This document shows positions 2,960-12,998 of a stretch of DNA of 38,727 nt, piece by piece. Each line of letters begins with the position of its first letter. Position 1 is the first letter of the stretch. The notes below the pieces were generated by a model that saw only the letters and a list, made by a program, of their open reading frames with translations, ran no database searches and had not been told where the DNA came from. The stretch lies in UHGV virus genome UHGV-2005300; one strand, given 5' to 3'. Source of the stretch: a virus. A program made the position numbers and the translations under genes.

Positions 2960-3014
2960 CGCTAGTTGCTACAGGCCCCATCAAGAGCATGGGGCCTCTT
3001 TATCGTACTATTGC

Positions 3015-3680
3015 TTATTTTTTACGGACTGAGTTGTTCACTGCTCTGGCAATCTTCTCCCGCAATTGCTGCGTTCCGTGGTACTGAACCGCAATATCCC
3101 TCAACTCGTTCACCAGTTCTCGAATCTGGTGATCTTTAAGCTCATTATTTGGGTGATTGGTAACAACTCTGGTTAATTCACCCTTGTCTTTTGCTCTTAC
3201 GTATGCAGCTCTTGTGCATTCGACCCATGTATTACCGCCTACATTAACTTCGTAGATTAGGCTGGACTTATCTGTCAATTCGGAACAAATACGGGCCGTG
3301 GTCTGGCAACTAGAGCATTCGCAGTTATCGCGGAAACCGTGGTCTACTGGCTTCGGTTTCACATCATCAACTTTTTCTACCCTATTGGAATTTAAATACT
3401 TCGAAGCCTTGCTATGCCAATCGCTGGTTTTAGGATCTTGTCCATCCATCAAACGCCAGGCTTCAGCGATTAACTCATAACTAGTGACTGTAGCTTCCTG
3501 CGCATCACCAATAAGTCGTGTAATCTCTCTTTCAAGCCGACCGCCTAGCTCTGTTTTAGTGCAATGTTCTGACCAATCGCCAGCCTCAAGCAGCGCGAGA
3601 ATGCTTAAAATATCGTCCAATAGAACGGTAGTATTATCGACTTCCTTCTGAAACTCACCGGCTACTGATTTATGCATCAT
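3015..3680 (-). CDS. Hypothetical early protein (221 aa)
   Basis: Long intact ORF coupled (ATGA) to the upstream gene; contains a cysteine cluster DNCECSSCQTTARIC; no family recognised by eye. Confidence 0.7.
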   Translation of the reverse strand: MMHKSVAGEFQKEVDNTTVLLDDILSILALLEAGDWSEHCTKTELGGRLEREITRLIGDAQEATVTSYELIAEAWRLMDGQDPKTSDWHSKASKYLNSNRVEKVDDVKPKPVDHGFRDNCECSSCQTTARICSELTDKSSLIYEVNVGGNTWVECTRAAYVRAKDKGELTRVVTNHPNNELKDHQIRELVNELRDIAVQYHGTQQLREKIARAVNNSVRKK

Positions 3681-3898
3681 TCGTCATCCTCATCCGAGTC
3701 ATCCTCATCACAGGATGAGAGTAGTGGGTTAGTCATTCGCCCTACTTGAGTGGCGTAGCCACGCCGACAGAGATTGCGCAGCACACTGTATATTTCGAAC
3801 ATCTCGGTTCGTTCATCGCCAACATCAAGCTCAGATGCTATAGCGTGGCATTCAGTCGCGAGAGCCGATATTTTCTGAAATAACTCTGCTTTATTCAC
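3677..3898 (-). CDS. Hypothetical acidic small protein (73 aa, GTG start)
   Basis: Trimmed from ORF 3677-4075; proposed GTG start overlaps the stop of the upstream gene with GGAG 7 nt upstream; acidic C-terminal tail. Confidence 0.4.
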   Translation of the reverse strand: MNKAELFQKISALATECHAIASELDVGDERTEMFEIYSVLRNLCRRGYATQVGRMTNPLLSSCDEDDSDEDDE

Positions 3899-4187
3899 TC
3901 TTCGACTCCTGTGGCGGTTCTGGTAGTGGCATCCAGTGAGTTGCTTGCTCAATAATGAGTTGCTCTTCGCTTTTCTCCAGTTCAGCAATGCGCTTACTCC
4001 CATCCGAGATAACACCTTCGTAATACTCACGCTGCTCGTTGAGTTTTGATTCAAGTTCACCGAACTTACGGACAAGATATTCAGCGTTTGTTTCGTTAAC
4101 CTTTAAATCTCGTGGGATGCATTTACCTTTCAGAAATCCATCCATCTCAATTAGTGACATTTGTTTCATTTCTTCCCACTCCGCCAC
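3891..4187 (-). CDS. Hypothetical coiled-coil protein (98 aa)
   Basis: ORF-track ORF with protein-like charged/helical composition. Confidence 0.6.
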
Positions 4188-8060: not shown

Positions 8061-8714
8061 TTAACTAAATGTCTCTTCAGGCCACTGGCTGGCGATAACT
8101 TTCCCTACTACGGAACAGCTATCATTGCATGGAATCATTGGATATTGCGGGTTTAGTGGCTGTAGGAACACCTGACCGCTATCCCTGATCAGTTTCTTGA
8201 AGGTAAACTCGTCACCACCAAGTCTGGCTATGCAGAAATCACCTGGCTCAACAGCCTGCTCAGGGTCAACGAGAATTAACATCCCGTCAGGAAAGCTTGG
8301 CTTGGATCCTGTTGGCGCGGTCATGGAATTACCTTCAACTTCAAGCCAGAACGCACAATCACTGGCTTTTTTGGTTGTGCTGACCCATCTCTCCGCATCA
8401 CCTTTGGTAAAGGTTCTAAGCTCAGGCGAGAACATCCCGGCCTGAACATGAGAAAAAACAGGGTACTCATATTGTTTTTTAACGGGGGCAGATGAGTATT
8501 CGCCAACAGGTGAAAATGTACCGTCGTGGTTGAATGAGACGTTATCAATACCAAGGTATTTAAACACCACACCAATCTCGTCAAGAGATGGATGACGAGA
8601 TCCGCGCAACCAGTGACCAATTCCACCCTGCGTCATACCAAGCTCTTCAGCTAACTTCTCTTGAGTTATGCCGAGCTCTTTCATTCTGGATCTAGCCAGT
8701 TCATACCATTTCAT
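8061..8714 (-). CDS. cI: CI/C2-type prophage repressor (HTH plus S24 autopeptidase domain)
   Basis: C-terminal [13 protein letters not shown]...FKKL...LNPQYPMI matches P22 C2 / LexA-like domain; N-terminal [23 protein letters not shown]; start chosen for RBS spacing, alternatives at 8720 and 8762. Confidence 0.85.
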
Positions 8715-8775
8715 TTTCATACCCTTATTATTACGCTCTGTACTAAAACCATCCATGCACAAGATGTATTTTTTG

Positions 8776-8805
8776 TTTGCATTCTAAAAGTACATATCGT
8801 ATTAT
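8776..8805 (+). promoter_or_regulatory. Candidate pR (-35 TTTGCA, -10 TATTAT)
   Basis: About 27 nt upstream of the cro ATG; 18-bp spacer; operators not confidently resolved. Confidence 0.4.
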
Positions 8806-8831
8806 TGTTTCATGGTTACTATGGAGGGCAT

Positions 8832-9047
8832 ATGAGCAACCTACGAAAATATCGAGAGTCACTGAATATCTCTCAAACAACACTTGCTAAGGCAGTTGGA
8901 TGCACACAGGGAGCTATCGGACATTGGGAATCTGGTCGTCGCTTCCCAGACCTTAAAACATGCCGTGCTCTTGTTGAGTGCCTAAACAAGTTGGGCGCAA
9001 AAGTCAGTCTTGATGACGTGTTCCCGCCGGAACACAAAGCCGCTTAA
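8832..9047 (+). CDS. cro: Cro-type HTH repressor (71 aa)
   Basis: GGAGGG ribosome-binding site; HTH LNISQTTLAKAVGCTQGAIGHWESG; divergent from cI; ORF-track ORF trimmed to the RBS-supported ATG. Confidence 0.8.
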   Translation: MSNLRKYRESLNISQTTLAKAVGCTQGAIGHWESGRRFPDLKTCRALVECLNKLGAKVSLDDVFPPEHKAA

Positions 9048-9055
9048 GACATTCC

Positions 9056-9087
9056 CGCTCTTACACATCCCAGCCCTGAAAAAGGGC
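9056..9087 (+). promoter_or_regulatory. nutR (boxA CGCTCTTAC, boxB GCCCTGAAAAAGGGC)
   Basis: Exact lambda-type boxA and boxB just after the cro stop. Confidence 0.8.
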
Positions 9088-9150
9088 ATCAAATTAAACC
9101 ACACCTATGGTGTATGCATTTATTTGCATACATTCAATCAATTGTTATCT
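9088..9150 (+). terminator. tR1-like region (Rho-dependent in lambda)
   Basis: Sequence ATCAAATTAAACCACACCTATGGTGTATGCATTTATTTGCATACATTC matches lambda tR1 from memory. Confidence 0.35.
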
Positions 9151-9166
9151 AAGGAAATACTTACAT

Positions 9167-9460
9167 ATGGTTCGTGCAAACAAACGCAACGAGGCTCTAC
9201 GAATCGAGAGTGCGTTGCTTAACAAAATCGCAATGCTTGGAACTGAGAAGACAGCGGAAGCTGTGGGAGTTGATAAGTCGCAGATCAGCAGGTGGAAGAG
9301 GGACTGGATTCCAAAGTTCTCAATGCTGCTTGCTGTTCTTGAATGGGGCGTCGTTGACGACGACATGGCTCGATTGGCACGACAAGTTGCTTCGATTCTC
9401 ACCAATAAAAAACGCCCGGCGGCAACCGAGCGTTCTGATCAAATCCAGATGGAGTTCTGA
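9167..9460 (+). CDS. cII: Transcriptional activator CII
   Basis: 97 aa [47 protein letters not shown]... essentially lambda CII from memory. Confidence 0.9.
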
Positions 9461-9492
9461 GGTCATTACTGGATCTATCAACAGGAGTAATT

Positions 9493-9637
9493 ATGACAAA
9501 ACAACTCAGTCCTTACCAGGACAAAATTCACAAACACATACTACGTGATCGCTTCCTGTCCAGCTTCAAGCAGCCTGGTCGATTCCGGGCTGAGTTGGAA
9601 AAAGTGAAGCTGATGCAGAAGGAGAAAGGTCATGAGT
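9493..9637 (+). CDS. Hypothetical small protein (48 aa) between cII and O
   Basis: AGGAG ribosome-binding site 5 nt upstream; stop overlaps the O start; under the ORF-track cutoff. Confidence 0.4.
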
Positions 9638-10492
9638 AATCTTGCAACCGTAACACATTTAAGGCCTTCACAACGGCCTGTGGAGCGTCGTGTGGCAGAA
9701 GTTGAAGATGGTTATACCCGTCTTGCAAATGCCCTGTATGAAGAGCTTATCGGCGCAGATTTAACGAAAAATCAGAGCAAGGTTGCCCACGCCATATGCC
9801 GTAAAACATACGGCTACGGTAAAAAGATGGATCGCATCTCTGATAGTCAGTTAGCTCAAATTACCAGGCTGCCAAGACAGAAGGTAAACAAGGCCAAGAA
9901 TGAGCTTATCGCGATGAAGGTAATCCTTCGCGAAGGCCAGCAAATCGGGCCTAACAAGAACATCGAGGAATGGCAAATCGAAGGGTGTCACTACTCTGGT
10001 GATAATGTCACTGCATTGGTGACAAAAAGTGTCACCAAAACGGTGACAGCGCTGTCACCAAAACAGGGACACACAAAAGAAACTATTACAAAAGAAAAAA
10101 GAAATAATAAAAACACTATGTCCGAAAGTGTTCGGACGGAGTGTGAAAAATCATCTGACCGTCACGAAGAAACCGACAAGGCATTCGAGGAAATATTCTG
10201 GTGTGCAGGCATGCGGAAAGCCGGGAAGAAAAACGCAGCTTCAGCATTCAGAACACAGTTCAGGGAATGGCGTAAAACTACCAAGGGTACGGCAAGCGAG
10301 TTTGCCACGATGCTGGCAGAAGACATCGCATGCAGGAATGGTAAGCAGTTCGGATTCGACAGGTTGTTACCATCGAGCTACCTGAACGGTCAGCGCTGGA
10401 ACGACGAGAAGCCAGAAACTATTCAACCACAATCCAAACCATCATCCGCAATCACCGTATCGAAAACTGGCTACGTGTTTTTCGACAGGTGA
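9632..10492 (+). CDS. O: Replication initiator O (lambda-O-like N-terminal domain, different C-terminal domain)
   Basis: N-terminal segments [13 protein letters not shown] and [20 protein letters not shown]...[16 protein letters not shown] parallel lambda O; iterons inside the gene. Confidence 0.85.
9980..10115. repeat. Replication origin: GTGACA/TGTCAC iterons followed by an AT-rich tract
   Basis: Repeated TGGTGACA / TGTCACCA units at about 9984-10066, then an A-rich stretch to about 10115, inside O as in lambda ori. Confidence 0.6.
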
Positions 10493-10495
10493 ACC

Positions 10496-10603
10496 ATGAA
10501 ATCAAAAATCAAATCGCTACTGGTCGCTGGTTATAACCACGGCTGGTTAAGTATTTCGTTTGTCGATTTCTGGTTTAAAAATCTCAATCTGAGGGAATCA
10601 TGA
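10496..10603 (+). CDS. Hypothetical small protein (35 aa) coupled between O and the helicase
   Basis: Starts 4 nt after the O stop; its stop overlaps the next ATG (ATGA); under the ORF-track cutoff. Confidence 0.3.
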   Translation: MKSKIKSLLVAGYNHGWLSISFVDFWFKNLNLRES

Positions 10604-12480
10604 CGCCAAGTGAACTCAGTGACCTGCTTTGGGCGCAGGTTGACAGGGTGGCTCCGCACCTGTTGCCAAACGGCAAGAAAGAGGGGCATGAGTGGGTTGC
10701 CGGTAACGTCAACGGTGACAAGGGAAACAGCCTTAAGGTCAACCTTAGCGGCAAGAAAAAATGGGCTGATTTCGCTGAGGGAGACGGCGGTGACATGCTT
10801 GATTTGTGGATGGCATGTCGTGGAATTAACCTGCATCAGGCTATGCAGGAAGCGAAAGCCTTTCTCGGAATCAAGGATGACGATCACCATTTCGATGCCA
10901 AACGTGAGAAGAAATTCTCCAGACCTGACCGCAAGAAAATCGCCCGCTACGTTACCAGAACAGAATCCCATCTTGAGTACCTGCAATCGCGTGGCATATC
11001 GCCAGAAGTCGTAAAGCGCTACGAGGTTGTCAGCGGCAAGGTGTGGAATGGAGAACGAGAACTTGATGCACTGGTGCTTCCGTACAAGCGCGATGGTGAG
11101 TTGTTGCAGGTCAAGCGAATCAGCACTGAGCGCCCGGACGGGAAGAAAGTCATTATGGCAGAAGGTGATTGCGAACCTTGTCTGTTCGGATGGCAGGCTC
11201 TGGACGCTGGCGTGAGGGCGGTTGTACTTTGCGAAGGCGAAATTGATTGTATGAGCTATGCGCAATACGGCATCTCGGCGTTATCCGTGCCGTTTGGTGG
11301 CGGGAAAGGCGCTAAGCAACAGTGGATTGAGTTTGAGTATCACAACCTCGACAGGTTTGAGGAAATATTCATCTCGATGGACGTTGATGATGTTGGTCGT
11401 GAGGCCGCAAGGGAAATCGCAAGCCGACTCGGTGAACATCGTTGCCGTCTTGTTACTCTGCCGTACAAAGACATCAACGAATGCCTGATGAACGGTGTTA
11501 CCGAGGATGAAATCTGGCAGTACATCGGCACGGCATCCTACTTCGACCCTGAAGAACTCTACAGCGCGCGAGAGTTTTACCAGGACACTATCAACGCTTT
11601 CTACGGCAAGCAGCAGTATCTGTTTAATCCACCGTGGGAATCTCTGGCAGATAAATTCCAGTTCCGTGAGGCCGAGTTGACGCTGGTCAATGGTGTGAAC
11701 GGTCACGGAAAAACGGAGGTTGTCGGGCATATGGCACTTGAGGCAATGCGTCAGGGTGTGAAGACGTGCATCGCGTCACTTGAGCTGAAGCCTGGTATTC
11801 TCCTTAAGCGCCTTACCCGTCAGGCGACGTGCTGCAAGATGCCGCCAGTGCTGGAAATTGACTCTGCATTTAAATTTTATGACGAAAGACTTTGGGTGTT
11901 TGGCCTGACCGGAACGGCGAAAGCCGACAGGCTGATCGAAATATTCGACTACGCTCGCCGCCGATACGGGATCCAGTTATTCATCATCGACAGCCTGATG
12001 AAATGTGGCATAGGCGACGATGACTATAACGGGCAGAAGGCGTTTGTTGACTCGATTTGCGACTTCAAAAACAAAACAAACTCCCACGTCATTCTCGTTA
12101 CTCACTCGCGAAAAGGAGACAGCGAAGAAAAACCAACCGGGAAAATGGACGTAAAAGGCTCTGGAGCGATAACAGACCTGACAGACAACCTTTTCATCAT
12201 CTGGCGTAACAAGGCTCGCGAGAGAGCGTTACAGAGAGTTCAGAGTGGTGAAAAGATGTCAGAGAAGGACGAACAGCTACTGGCATCTCCGGCATCTGTT
12301 TTGATGCTTGAAAAACAACGTAACGGCGAAGGTTGGGAGGGTGGTGTCCCGTTGTTCCTTGACGAGCAATCGCACCAGTTCCTGCAACTTGAATCAGGAT
12401 CGCCATATAGCTACATCGCCAATATGCCGAAATCGGAATATGACGAGGCGTGGCGACAGGAAAACGTGACGGAGTATTAA
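10600..12480 (+). CDS. Replicative primase/helicase fusion (primase-like N-terminus plus DnaB/RecA-fold helicase)
   Basis: 626 aa; Walker A GVNGHGKT and Walker B-like LFIIDSL in the C-terminal half; occupies the lambda P position. Confidence 0.85.
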   Translation: MTPSELSDLLWAQVDRVAPHLLPNGKKEGHEWVAGNVNGDKGNSLKVNLSGKKKWADFAEGDGGDMLDLWMACRGINLHQAMQEAKAFLGIKDDDHHFDAKREKKFSRPDRKKIARYVTRTESHLEYLQSRGISPEVVKRYEVVSGKVWNGERELDALVLPYKRDGELLQVKRISTERPDGKKVIMAEGDCEPCLFGWQALDAGVRAVVLCEGEIDCMSYAQYGISALSVPFGGGKGAKQQWIEFEYHNLDRFEEIFISMDVDDVGREAAREIASRLGEHRCRLVTLPYKDINECLMNGVTEDEIWQYIGTASYFDPEELYSAREFYQDTINAFYGKQQYLFNPPWESLADKFQFREAELTLVNGVNGHGKTEVVGHMALEAMRQGVKTCIASLELKPGILLKRLTRQATCCKMPPVLEIDSAFKFYDERLWVFGLTGTAKADRLIEIFDYARRRYGIQLFIIDSLMKCGIGDDDYNGQKAFVDSICDFKNKTNSHVILVTHSRKGDSEEKPTGKMDVKGSGAITDLTDNLFIIWRNKARERALQRVQSGEKMSEKDEQLLASPASVLMLEKQRNGEGWEGGVPLFLDEQSHQFLQLESGSPYSYIANMPKSEYDEAWRQENVTEY

Positions 12481-12509
12481 ATGACCATCTACATCACTGA
12501 GCTAATAAC

Positions 12510-12540
12510 AGGCCTGCTGGTAATCGCAGGCCTTTTTATT
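12510..12540 (+). terminator. Intrinsic terminator after the replication genes (tR2-like)
   Basis: AGGCCTGC-tggtaatc-GCAGGCCT followed by TTTTATT. Confidence 0.55.
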
Positions 12541-12557
12541 TGGGGGAGAGGGAAGTC

Positions 12558-12998
12558 ATGAAAAAACTAACCTTTGAAATTCGATCTCCAGCACATCAGC
12601 AAAACGCTATTCACGCAGTACAGCAAATTCTTCCAGACCCAACCAAACCAATCGTAGTGACCATCCAGGAACGCAACCGCAGCTTAGACCAAAACAGGAA
12701 GCTATGGGCCTGCTTAGGTGACGTCTCTCGTCAGGTTGAATGGCATGGTCGCTGGCTGGATGCAGAAAGCTGGAAGTGTGTGTTTACCGCAGCATTAAAG
12801 CAGCAGGATGTTGTTCCTAACCTTGCCGGGAATGGCTTTGTGGTAATAGGCCAGTCAACCAGCAGGATGCGTGTAAGCGAATTTGCGGAGCTATTAGAGC
12901 TTATACAGGCATTCGGTACAGAGCGTGGCGTTAAGTGGTCAGACGAAGCGCGACTGGCTCTGGAGTGGAAAGCGAGATGGGGAGATCGGGCAGCATGA
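12558..12998 (+). CDS. ninB: NinB (Orf-family recombination mediator)
   Basis: [53 protein letters not shown]... as lambda NinB from memory. Confidence 0.85.

What the first reader, a model, noticed from the sequence alone, without database searches (positions are those of the whole stretch)
9493..12561. Replication module with a primase/helicase fusion and two short translationally coupled ORFs
In place of lambda P there is a 626-aa fusion with a primase-like N-terminus and a helicase C-terminus. It is preceded by a 35-codon ORF wedged between O and the helicase (stop/start overlaps on both sides). A separate 48-codon ORF with a good ribosome-binding site lies between cII and O. Neither small ORF is in the ORF track.
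Basis: partly seen in the sequence, partly recalled or inferred. Interest (0 to 1): 0.4.

Follow-up and report, generated by a model that had tools for sequence, protein, structure and literature searches.

The report
Known lambdoid primase-helicase replication module
This is the ordinary, already annotated "ES18-type" replication gene block of a P22-like phage, in which the phage carries its own T7-like primase-helicase instead of lambda P; the two tiny genes beside it are real and conserved, but their function is still unknown.

Summary
The window is a P22-like/lambdoid phage (about 99% identical to Sf101 and mEp043). On the + strand it carries cII, orf48 (9493-9639), an O-like initiator (9632-10492) with ori inside it, orf35 (10496-10603), a 626-aa primase-helicase (10600-12480), ninA and ninB.

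The 626-aa protein is a T7 gp4/Twinkle-type Toprim primase fused to an SF4 helicase, and all catalytic motifs are conserved. Its N-terminal CHC2-like zinc ribbon has lost every cysteine ligand.

orf48 is P22 orf48 (Pfam DUF2740). orf35 is ES18 gp60 (phrog_21848).

I show that orf35 is a real gene:
- It is exactly 35 codons in 31 of 37 related loci across Enterobacterales.
- Its pN/pS is 0.38, against 1.0 and 1.7 in the other two frames.
- Its stop always overlaps or abuts the helicase start.
- No conserved RNA structure explains the conservation.

orf35 travels with the helicase and the C-terminal domain of O while the N-terminal domain of O is swapped. It is cleanly missing in a few prophages.

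All parts have been annotated since 2005 (ES18 gp58-gp61). Novelty is nil and interest is low. The only open question is what the two mini-proteins do.

The parts
9493..9639 (+). orf48: a 48-codon basic mini-protein gene (P22 orf48 / HK620 hkaW / Pfam DUF2740). It has its own AGGAG RBS. Its stop lies 8 nt inside the O-like gene.
   Evidence: Pfam DUF2740 E = 9e-29. 85% identical to P22 orf48 and 100% to HK022/HK620/Stx-phage copies. 47-48 codons in 14 of 15 sequence variants, one 55. pN/pS 0.5 in frame against 1.0-1.4 off frame. Its ATG corresponds to the lambda O ATG (PMC3349717).
9632..10492 (+). O-like replication initiator, 286 aa. The N-terminal domain is lambda-O type. The C-terminal domain (aa 157-286) is a different type that is co-inherited with orf35 and the helicase.
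   Evidence: Phage_rep_O E = 1e-37 on residues 20-114. TIGR01610. phrog_33384 on residues 157-286. No Pfam hit for the C-terminal domain. Co-occurrence.
9986..10118 (.). ori inside the O-like gene. Four 19-bp dyad iterons (TGTCAC-N7-GGTGACA) start at 9986, 10006, 10030 and 10053, followed by an A+T-rich tract at 10073-10118.
   Evidence: the repeat finder families D1/D2 with spacing 20/24/23. Sequence. The same position is annotated as rep_origin in ES18 and epsilon34.
10496..10603 (+). orf35: a 35-codon mini-protein gene (ES18 gp60 / epsilon34 gp51 / phrog_21848). It starts 3 nt after the O stop, and its stop overlaps the helicase ATG (ATGA). The helicase SD (GAGG) lies in its last codons.
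   Evidence: phrog_21848 E = 4e-26. Present as exactly 35 codons in 31 of 37 loci. pN/pS 0.38 against 1.02 and 1.67 off frame; codon-position entropy 0.76/0.49/1.17. Invariant M1 K2 K6 L9 G12 G16 V23. No conserved RNA structure.
10600..12480 (+). 626-aa bifunctional primase-helicase of the T7 gp4/Twinkle type, in the position of lambda P.
   Evidence: phrog_239 E = 2e-171. Toprim_2, AAA_25 and DnaB_C. Best solved relatives are T7 gp4 (5ikn, 6n7i, E about 1e-23) and Twinkle. Annotated as primase/helicase in ES18, SEN22 and other records.
10675..10875 (+). N-terminal CHC2-like ribbon of the primase (aa 26-92) that lacks the Cys/His zinc ligands.
   Evidence: Zn_ribbon_DnaG matches only at E = 0.1. 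In an alignment of 31 homologues, the ligand positions as I placed them by eye against the CHC2 motif recalled from memory hold V/A...D/E rather than Cys.
11224..11487 (+). Toprim catalytic core of the primase (aa 209-296). It contains E212, D261/D263 and D291.
   Evidence: Toprim_2 E = 3e-12. The segments align residue for residue to T7 gp4 EGEID / DMDEAG / KDANE. These acidic residues are invariant in 31 homologues.
11662..12381 (+). SF4 (RecA-type) helicase domain (aa 355-594). Motifs: Walker A GHGK371T, Walker B D464, H502, K519-G520 and a putative arginine finger R574.
   Evidence: AAA_25/DnaB_C. Alignment to T7 gp4 up to query residue 539. Motif conservation.
12481..12561 (+). ninA: a 26-codon hydrophobic mini-ORF that starts right after the helicase stop and overlaps the ninB start. 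It contains a terminator-like hairpin with a T-run at 12510-12533.
   Evidence: phrog_5907 E = 2e-19. Hairpin. P22 annotates a terminator inside ninA.
9409..9436 (-). oop-type antisense terminator in the 3' end of cII (context for orf48). By homology with P22, the oop promoter overlaps the first codons of orf48.
   Evidence: 12-bp stem plus T-run on the minus strand. P22 annotation of the oop terminator and promoter around orf48. PMC3349717.

Best explanation
This is the early-right (pR) replication module of a P22-like/lambdoid temperate phage, of the 'ES18 type'.

The O-like initiator binds through its lambda-O-type N-terminal domain to four 19-bp iterons inside its own gene, next to an A+T-rich tract (ori). 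Lambda uses P to steal host DnaB. Here the distinct C-terminal domain of O would instead recruit the phage's own hexameric primase-helicase. That protein is T7 gp4/Twinkle type: a Toprim primase, a linker and an SF4 helicase. It both unwinds and primes, so replication should not need host DnaB, DnaC or DnaG.

The genes are strung together for coupled translation: orf48, then an 8-nt overlap, then O, then a 3-nt gap, then orf35, then a 4-nt overlap, then the primase-helicase, then a 0-nt gap, then ninA, then a 4-nt overlap, then ninB.

orf35 is a real, purifying-selected, probably alpha-helical mini-protein. It is co-inherited with the helicase and made just before it. My best guess is a non-essential accessory of helicase assembly or loading. 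orf48 is a small basic protein gene that many lambdoid phages carry between the oop promoter and their initiator, whatever helicase they use.

Shown: gene identities, motifs, the iterons, conservation and selection, and linkage. Inferred: the O-C/helicase contact, independence from host factors, actual translation of the small ORFs, and what they do.
For: Identity of the module:
- About 99% nucleotide identity to phages vB_EcoP-720R6, mEp043 and Sf101, and 88-92% to SEN22, epsilon34, g341c and ES18.
- ES18 and epsilon34 annotate the same gene order, including gp60/gp51 (35 aa) and 'putative primase/helicase similar to T7 gene 4'.

Domains:
- Phage_rep_O, Toprim_2 and AAA_25/DnaB_C, and phrog_239.
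- T7 gp4 structures at E about 1e-23 and Twinkle at 6e-14.
- Catalytic residues are invariant in 31 homologues.

ori: four iterons plus an AT tract.

orf35:
- 35 codons in 31 of 37 loci with 59-100% identical helicases, behind at least three initiator types.
- pN/pS 0.38 in frame against 1.02 and 1.67 off frame.
- All 44 tblastn hits in phage records, and 80 of 80 viral contigs, lie directly upstream of the helicase.
- No conserved RNA fold.

O C-terminal domain: present in 80 of 80 of those contigs, while the N-terminal domain differs in 21.

orf48: DUF2740. Found ahead of lambda-type O/P (HK022, HK620), P22 genes 18/12, and this module. pN/pS 0.5.
Against: - There is no expression or proteomic evidence for either mini-ORF.
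- orf35 is absent from five related prophages and from Pseudomonas phage AF. In Providencia L033 it looks precisely deleted between two TGAGG repeats while the O C-terminal domain and the helicase remain. It therefore cannot be an obligatory loader.
- orf35 alleles (71% against 100% identity) are shuffled relative to helicase alleles, so no co-evolution signal was seen.
- The primase N-terminal ribbon has none of the usual zinc ligands. In T7 that domain is needed for template recognition (my own knowledge), so primase activity is inferred only from the intact Toprim site.
- The AlphaFold model of the 626-aa protein without an alignment was useless (pLDDT 36).
- The orf35 model is a single helix from a single sequence (pLDDT 81) and is weak evidence.
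Confidence: 0.85

Rival explanations
1. orf35 has no function as a peptide. It is only a translated leader or spacer that delivers ribosomes from O to the helicase start (termination-reinitiation), or it covers an RNA or DNA regulatory element for helicase expression.
For: Stop/start geometry is conserved in every locus: ATGA, TAATG or TGATG. The helicase Shine-Dalgarno (GAGG) lies inside the last orf35 codons, which explains the conserved L32-R33. The local RNA folds slightly better than shuffles (z = -2.1). Clean natural deletions exist.
Against: The amino-acid sequence is conserved while synonymous sites are nearly saturated: pS 0.66 against pN 0.25, with third-position entropy 2.4 times that of the second position. 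G12, Y13, N14, H15 and G16 are kept through four Gly codons and both Tyr codons. Length is fixed at 35 codons. RNAalifold finds no shared structure: 4 pairs, -2.35 kcal/mol, covariation term -0.06.
Confidence: 0.2
2. The small ORFs are chance open frames in intergenic or junction DNA and are not genes.
For: They are very short. PGAP/RefSeq does not call orf35. Only three clusters of orf35-like proteins exist among 1.84 billion representatives. The PHROG and RefSeq label for orf48 ('tail protein') is plainly unreliable.
Against: Frame-specific purifying selection is seen for both. Length is preserved down to 40-50% amino-acid identity across Enterobacterales. There is a Pfam family for orf48 and a PHROG for orf35. 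Both have good RBSs.
Confidence: 0.05
3. The 626-aa protein works only as a helicase. Its primase half is degenerate, as in metazoan Twinkle, and host DnaG still primes.
For: The N-terminal CHC2-like ribbon has lost all Cys/His ligands in all 31 homologues. The precedent of Twinkle is from my own knowledge.
Against: The Toprim acidic residues E212, D261, D263 and D291 are invariant in 31 sequences down to 41% identity. The surrounding motifs match the active T7 primase. The ligand-less ribbon itself is strongly conserved (E31, W32, G35, D57, F58, A59, G61, G64 and D65 are invariant), which suggests it is functional rather than decaying.
Confidence: 0.15

Closest known systems
Salmonella phage ES18 genes 58-61 (also epsilon34 gp49-52, g341c, mEp043, Sf101, SEN22)
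   Same: Same gene order and same proteins: a small ORF between cII and O, an O-like initiator with internal ori, the 35-aa gp60, and the 626-aa 'putative primase/helicase similar to T7 gene 4'. ES18 is 88-89% identical at the nucleotide level. mEp043 and Sf101 are about 99% identical.
   Different: ES18 and epsilon34 carry a different small ORF upstream of O (53 aa, HK97 gp53 type) and a different O N-terminal domain (55% identity). They also have an extra gene (gp62) before ninA. These are only mosaic differences.
Bacteriophage T7 gp4 and mitochondrial Twinkle (SF4 primase-helicases)
   Same: Toprim primase core plus a RecA-type SF4 helicase in one chain. The catalytic motifs align (EGEID, DxD, KDxNE, Walker A/B, H3, H4) at E about 1e-23 for gp4 and 6e-14 for Twinkle.
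   Different: Only about 25% identity. The N-terminal ribbon lacks the four zinc ligands of gp4. It works in a theta/origin-initiator context with an O protein rather than in a T7-type RNA-polymerase-primed origin (the T7 side is from my own knowledge). No internal 4B-type start was examined.
Lambda O/P and P22 gene 18/gene 12 replication modules
   Same: Same position in the pR operon (cII, oop, O-like, helicase function, nin). Same O N-terminal family. Iterons plus an AT-rich ori inside the initiator gene. P22 also has orf48 and ninA with a terminator inside it.
   Different: Lambda P is a loader that hijacks host DnaB, and P22 gp12 is a DnaB-type helicase that uses host DnaG (Wickner 1984, cited in PMC8022706). 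Here the second gene is a self-contained primase-helicase, the O C-terminal domain is of another type, and orf35 is added. Lambda lacks orf48 (PMC3349717).

Membership tests
T7 gp4 / Twinkle-type bifunctional primase-helicase (SF4) | Toprim RNA-polymerase domain with conserved acidic catalytic residues | tested here: met
   Toprim_2 E = 3e-12. EGEID, MDxD and KDxNE align to T7 gp4. E212, D261, D263 and D291 are invariant in 31 homologues.
T7 gp4 / Twinkle-type bifunctional primase-helicase (SF4) | C-terminal RecA-type SF4 helicase motifs (Walker A, Walker B, H3 His, H4, Arg finger) | tested here: met
   AAA_25/DnaB_C. Alignment to gp4 up to query residue 539. K371, D464, H502, K519/G520 and R574 are conserved. 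The Arg-finger assignment is by position only and was not covered by the alignment.
T7 gp4 / Twinkle-type bifunctional primase-helicase (SF4) | N-terminal Cys4 zinc-binding domain for template recognition | tested here: not met
   Only a weak CHC2 ribbon match (E = 0.1). No conserved Cys or His at the ligand positions, as I placed them by eye, in 31 homologues. This resembles the ligand-less state of metazoan Twinkle (my own knowledge).
T7 gp4 / Twinkle-type bifunctional primase-helicase (SF4) | Hexameric ring, dTTP/NTP-driven 5'-3' unwinding, and oligoribonucleotide synthesis | not testable with these tools
   Needs biochemistry. The AlphaFold monomer model without an alignment failed (pLDDT 36).
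Lambda O-type replication initiators | Phage_rep_O N-terminal DNA-binding domain | tested here: met
   PF04492 E = 1e-37 on residues 20-114. TIGR01610 E = 2e-30.
Lambda O-type replication initiators | Iterons with dyad symmetry plus an A+T-rich region inside the gene (ori) | tested here: met
   Four 19-bp TGTCAC-N7-GGTGACA repeats at 9986-10071 and an AT tract at 10073-10118.
Lambda O-type replication initiators | C-terminal domain of the lambda type (binds P) | tested here: not met
   Residues 157-286 have no Pfam hit at E <= 10 and match phrog_33384 (E = 9e-89). This domain is co-inherited with the primase-helicase. No direct comparison with the lambda O C-terminus was run.
DUF2740 / P22 orf48 | Match to the family profile, about 48 aa, located between cII/oop and the initiator gene | tested here: met
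   PF10872 at 99 bits against a cut-off of 27. 85% identical to P22 orf48 in the same position.
phrog_21848 / ES18 gp60 | 35-aa protein encoded directly upstream of the primase-helicase | tested here: met
   E = 4e-26 over the full length. 97% identical to ES18 gp60. Position conserved.

The most novel reading that the evidence does not exclude
orf35 is a dedicated small subunit of the phage replisome. It would be a 35-residue helical adaptor or assembly factor, made in step with the gp4-like primase-helicase, that helps load it at the O-bound origin (a functional 'mini-P'). Alternatively it shields the helicase from host interference. orf48 would be a second mini-protein tuning initiation at the cII/oop/O junction. 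This would add an unrecognised accessory component to a self-loading SF4 helicase system present in about a third of complete E. coli genomes.
Probability: 0.25. Interest if true: 0.45.

Novelty: already known. Interest (0 to 1): 0.15.

Why it matters
It matters little for discovery. The module, the fusion protein and both mini-ORFs are already in GenBank annotations, Pfam and PHROGs, and in papers.

There is practical value for annotation:
- orf35 is a genuine gene that PGAP/RefSeq systematically misses.
- The label 'tail protein' on the orf48 family (phrog_1913 and RefSeq records) is wrong.

The module is very common. A match is found in 2005 of 5426 complete E. coli genomes, including Stx2 phages. 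A cheap experiment on what the 35-aa and 48-aa proteins do, and whether these phages replicate independently of host DnaB, DnaC and DnaG, would therefore fill a small but real gap in lambdoid phage biology.

Tried and rejected
- **Conserved RNA element under orf35.** The single-sequence fold was mildly stable (z = -2.1). RNAalifold on 16 diverged loci gave no consensus structure or covariation. Rejected.
- **Rfam scan of 8700-12700.** It gave only one sub-threshold hit (Mu-gpT-DE, 20 bits against a cut-off of 49, E = 0.25). Chance.
- **orf35 as a membrane peptide.** The best 19-residue Kyte-Doolittle mean is only 0.7-0.9, and homologues carry D/E/R in the stretch. Not supported.
- **orf35 against 1.84 billion representative proteins.** Only three true clusters were found. 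The two long hits (P0003, P0004) are repeat proteins sharing a 'GW.D..KVDFW' motif by chance.
- **AlphaFold of the 626-aa protein without an alignment.** pLDDT was 36 and the model was unusable, so no fold search was run. The single-sequence orf35 model is one helix and says little.
- **The search for homologous proteins.** It refuses queries shorter than 40 aa.
- **Long antisense ORFs inside the helicase gene** (10531-11265 and 11281-11730, minus strand). No Pfam or PHROG match. Treated as spurious.
- **The ES18 genome paper.** It could not be retrieved.
- **Literature searches.** A search for DUF2740 returned nothing. A search for Stx-phage primase-helicase work found nothing useful.
Full report
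**What is in the sequence.**
ORF listing and direct reading give the following on the + strand.
- cro: 8832-9047.
- cII: 9167-9460.
- A 48-codon ORF: 9493-9639.
- A 286-aa O-like gene: 9632-10492.
- A 35-codon ORF: 10496-10603.
- A 626-aa ORF: 10600-12480.
- A 26-codon ORF, ninA: 12481-12561.
- ninB: 12558-12998.

The cI-like repressor lies on the minus strand (8061-8762).

orf48 has a strong RBS (AGGAG, then 6 nt, then ATG), and its stop lies 8 nt inside the O-like gene (ATGAGTAA).

The one factual slip concerns orf35. It overlaps only the downstream gene (ATGA). Upstream, the O stop TGA is followed by 'acc' and then the ATG. That is a 3-nt gap, which still fits termination-reinitiation coupling.

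**Identity of the locus.**
Megablast against phage records shows about 99% identity to vB_EcoP-720R6, mEp043 and Sf101. Identity is 92% to SEN22 and 88-89% to Salmonella phages epsilon34, g341c and ES18. Large parts are also shared with Stx2 phages (24B, Min27).

The deposited annotations already describe the module.
- ES18 lists gp58 (small ORF), gp59 (O-like, with rep_origin), gp60 (35 aa, 'function unknown') and gp61 ('putative primase/helicase; similar to phage T7 gene 4').
- epsilon34 lists gp49-gp52 in the same way.

The module is common. 2005 of 5426 complete E. coli genomes hold a match, and 286 hold an uninterrupted one. PGAP annotates only 'replication protein' and 'toprim domain-containing protein' there, so orf35 is not called.

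**The 626-aa protein.**
Pfam finds Toprim_2 (residues 209-296, E = 3e-12) and AAA_25/DnaB_C (residues 355-594). PHROGs places it in phrog_239 'DNA primase/helicase' (E = 2e-171).

Against all PDB sequences, the best relatives are T7 gp4 (5ikn, 6n7i, 1q57; E about 1e-23 to 1e-21, query residues 191-539) and human Twinkle (8e2l, 7t8b). The alignment matches these segments:
- EGEID
- MDVDD to DMDEAG
- KDINE to KDANE
- GHGKT to GMGKS
- IIDS to ILDH
- THS to CHL
- KGSGA to RGSGA

In an alignment of 31 non-identical homologues (41-100% identity), E212, D261, D263, D291 and K371 are invariant. D464, H502 and R574 are each kept in 30 of 31.

The N-terminal roughly 90 residues resemble a CHC2 zinc ribbon only weakly (E = 0.1). 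I placed the ligand positions by eye against the CHC2 motif recalled from memory. At those positions the four ligands are V/A...D/E rather than Cys or His in every homologue. Other residues of that segment are nevertheless invariant (E31, W32, G35, D57, F58, A59, G61, G64, D65).

So it is a gp4/Twinkle-type primase-helicase with a conserved but zinc-ligand-less N-terminal domain. The family feature 'Cys4 zinc-binding domain' is therefore not met. The enzyme cores are met.

A single-sequence AlphaFold model was unusable (pLDDT 36), so no fold search was made.

**The initiator and ori.**
The O-like protein has the lambda O N-terminal domain (PF04492, E = 1e-37; TIGR01610).

Inside the gene there are four 19-bp dyad iterons (TGTCAC-N7-GGTGACA) at 9986, 10006, 10030 and 10053. 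They are followed by an A+T-rich tract at 10073-10118. This is the lambda ori layout, at the place annotated as rep_origin in ES18 and epsilon34.

The C-terminal domain (aa 157-286) has no Pfam match and matches phrog_33384. It is detectable in most of the loci that carry the primase-helicase, even when the N-terminal domain is replaced. In 80 viral contigs found through orf35, all 80 have this C-terminal domain and the helicase. Only 59 have this N-terminal domain.

By analogy with the lambda O C-terminus binding P (established knowledge), I infer that this domain recruits the primase-helicase. This contact is inferred, not shown.

**orf35.**
It matches phrog_21848 over its full length (E = 4e-26) and has no Pfam or NCBIfam family.

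tblastn finds it in 44 phage records. The rows listed, and the loci I fetched, place it directly upstream of the primase-helicase.

I fetched 32 genome loci around relatives of the helicase, plus annotated phage regions. In 31 of the 37 loci with a 59-100% identical helicase, there is an ORF of exactly 35 codons ending at the helicase start (ATGA, TAATG or TGATG; one case has a +3 gap). It sits behind at least three kinds of initiator:
- O-like;
- the two-gene set of S107;
- the Fraca, SaltyDalty and EKP1 types.

The consensus is MKs.iKslLiaGYNHGlLs..FV..wF.kl.LR.., with M1, K2, K6, L9, G12, G16 and V23 invariant.

Over 28 distinct nucleotide sequences the selection signal is frame-specific.

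| Measure | Reading frame | Frame +1 | Frame +2 |
|---|---|---|---|
| Pooled Nei-Gojobori pN/pS | 0.38 | 1.02 | 1.67 |
| Median dN/dS | 0.24 | 1.05 | 1.96 |

Positional entropy is 0.76, 0.49 and 1.17 for codon positions 1, 2 and 3.

RNAalifold on 16 diverged copies finds no shared structure. The conservation is therefore at the protein level, and orf35 is a real gene.

The last conserved codons (L32-R33, CTG AGG) also carry the helicase Shine-Dalgarno sequence.

orf35 is missing in Xenorhabdus and Providencia loci L022, L024, L026, L028 and L033, and in Pseudomonas phage AF. In L033 the junction looks like a clean deletion between two TGAGG repeats when compared with L036. The peptide is therefore dispensable in some lineages.

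orf35 alleles (100% against 71% identity) are shuffled relative to helicase alleles.

A single-sequence AlphaFold model is one long helix (pLDDT 81), which is weak evidence. Hydropathy does not support a membrane span.

**orf48.**
It matches Pfam DUF2740 (99 bits against a cut-off of 27). It is 85% identical to P22 orf48 and 100% identical to copies in HK022, HK620 (hkaW), HK630 and Stx1/Stx2 phages.

It precedes initiators of several types with different helicase partners:
- lambda-type O/P;
- P22 genes 18/12;
- the DnaB-type helicase of Erwinia phage Midgardsormr38;
- this module.

It therefore belongs to the cII/oop/initiator junction, not to the primase-helicase.

Diverged copies keep 47-48 codons in 14 of the 15 sequence variants recovered; one is 55 codons. 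They also keep a YQ..(I/L)HKN..R(D/E)RF core. pN/pS is 0.5 in frame against 1.0-1.4 off frame.

Hayes et al. [quoted passage not shown] P22 annotation places the oop promoter over the first codons of orf48 and the oop terminator in the cII 3' end. The window has the matching minus-strand terminator at 9436-9409.

**How it most likely works.**
The pR transcript carries a chain of closely coupled reading frames.
- O binds its iterons and opens the AT tract.
- Its C-terminal domain brings in the phage's own hexameric primase-helicase.
- That enzyme unwinds and primes without host DnaB, DnaC or DnaG.
- orf35 is made immediately before the helicase, probably in similar amounts.
- It is most likely a non-essential helical accessory of helicase assembly or loading.
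- orf48 is a basic mini-protein of unknown role at the cII/oop/initiator junction.

Gene identity, motifs, iterons, selection and linkage are shown. The protein contacts, host independence, translation, and the roles of the mini-proteins are inferred.

**Comparison and verdict.**
The module is a member of the ES18-type replication module of lambdoid/P22-like phages. Every component already has a database family or a published name.

It works like a T7 gp4/Twinkle enzyme placed under a lambda-type initiator. It differs from gp4 in the zinc-less N-terminal domain. It differs from lambda and P22 in replacing P/gp12 and in having orf35.

Novelty: already known. Interest: low. The residual open point is the function of the two (with ninA, three) mini-ORFs.

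Noticed in passing
L005 (phage 24B, HM208303) 3109-4134; empty site in the window at about 11710-11715 (GHGK371|T372): The Stx2-phage homologue ('P', 968 aa) is the same primase-helicase, interrupted in the Walker A loop by a 342-aa in-frame insert. The insert has LAGLIDADG-like motifs, starts with Ala-Cys and ends in THN followed by Thr. It looks like an intein (possibly class 3: Ala1, W...C...T). The window has the uninterrupted site.
   Followed up: partly
window 12481-12561 (+), hairpin at 12510-12533: The 26-codon hydrophobic ninA ORF (phrog_5907) contains a GC-rich hairpin followed by TTTTTATTT. P22 annotates a lambda-like terminator inside its ninA. The conservation of 'NinA' may therefore reflect the terminator as much as a peptide.
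   Followed up: partly
window 9409-9436 (-) and about 9490-9520 (-): There is an oop-type antisense RNA terminator in the 3' end of cII. By homology with P22, the oop promoter overlaps the RBS and first codons of orf48 on the other strand.
   Followed up: partly
window 9493-9639; RefSeq NC_019706, NC_027398, NC_028696; phrog_1913: The orf48/DUF2740 family is labelled 'tail protein' in PHROGs and in several RefSeq phage records. This is an evident annotation error for a 48-aa early-operon ORF, and it is being propagated.
   Followed up: no
window 10675-10875 (primase-helicase aa 26-92): The CHC2-like ribbon of the primase has no Cys/His ligands in any of 31 homologues, yet it is strongly conserved. 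This raises the question of how template recognition works without zinc.
   Followed up: partly
L033 about 2960-3003 compared with L036 2880-3003: A Providencia alcalifaciens prophage lacks orf35 through what looks like a precise deletion between two TGAGG repeats. The O C-terminal end, the SD and the helicase are left intact.
   Followed up: partly
window 9632-10492 (boundary near aa 120-157): There is a mosaic joint inside the initiator gene. In 21 of 80 viral contigs the N-terminal (iteron-binding) domain is of another type, while the C-terminal domain, orf35 and the helicase stay 90-100% identical.
   Followed up: partly
H186, E. coli 47-1826 NZ_CP184839 4454877-4457663: In this genome the same gene region carries an insertion of about 665 bp annotated as an HNH endonuclease. 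This is another mobile element targeting this module.
   Followed up: no
L009 (OM284015, 'Elizabethkingia phage EKP1'): A phage recorded as infecting Elizabethkingia carries an enterobacterial-style initiator, orf35 and primase-helicase module (59% identical helicase). The host assignment may deserve a check.
   Followed up: no
window 10531-11265 (-) and 11281-11730 (-): There are long antisense ORFs (244 and 149 aa) inside the primase-helicase gene. Neither has a Pfam or PHROG match, so they are probably spurious.
   Followed up: yes
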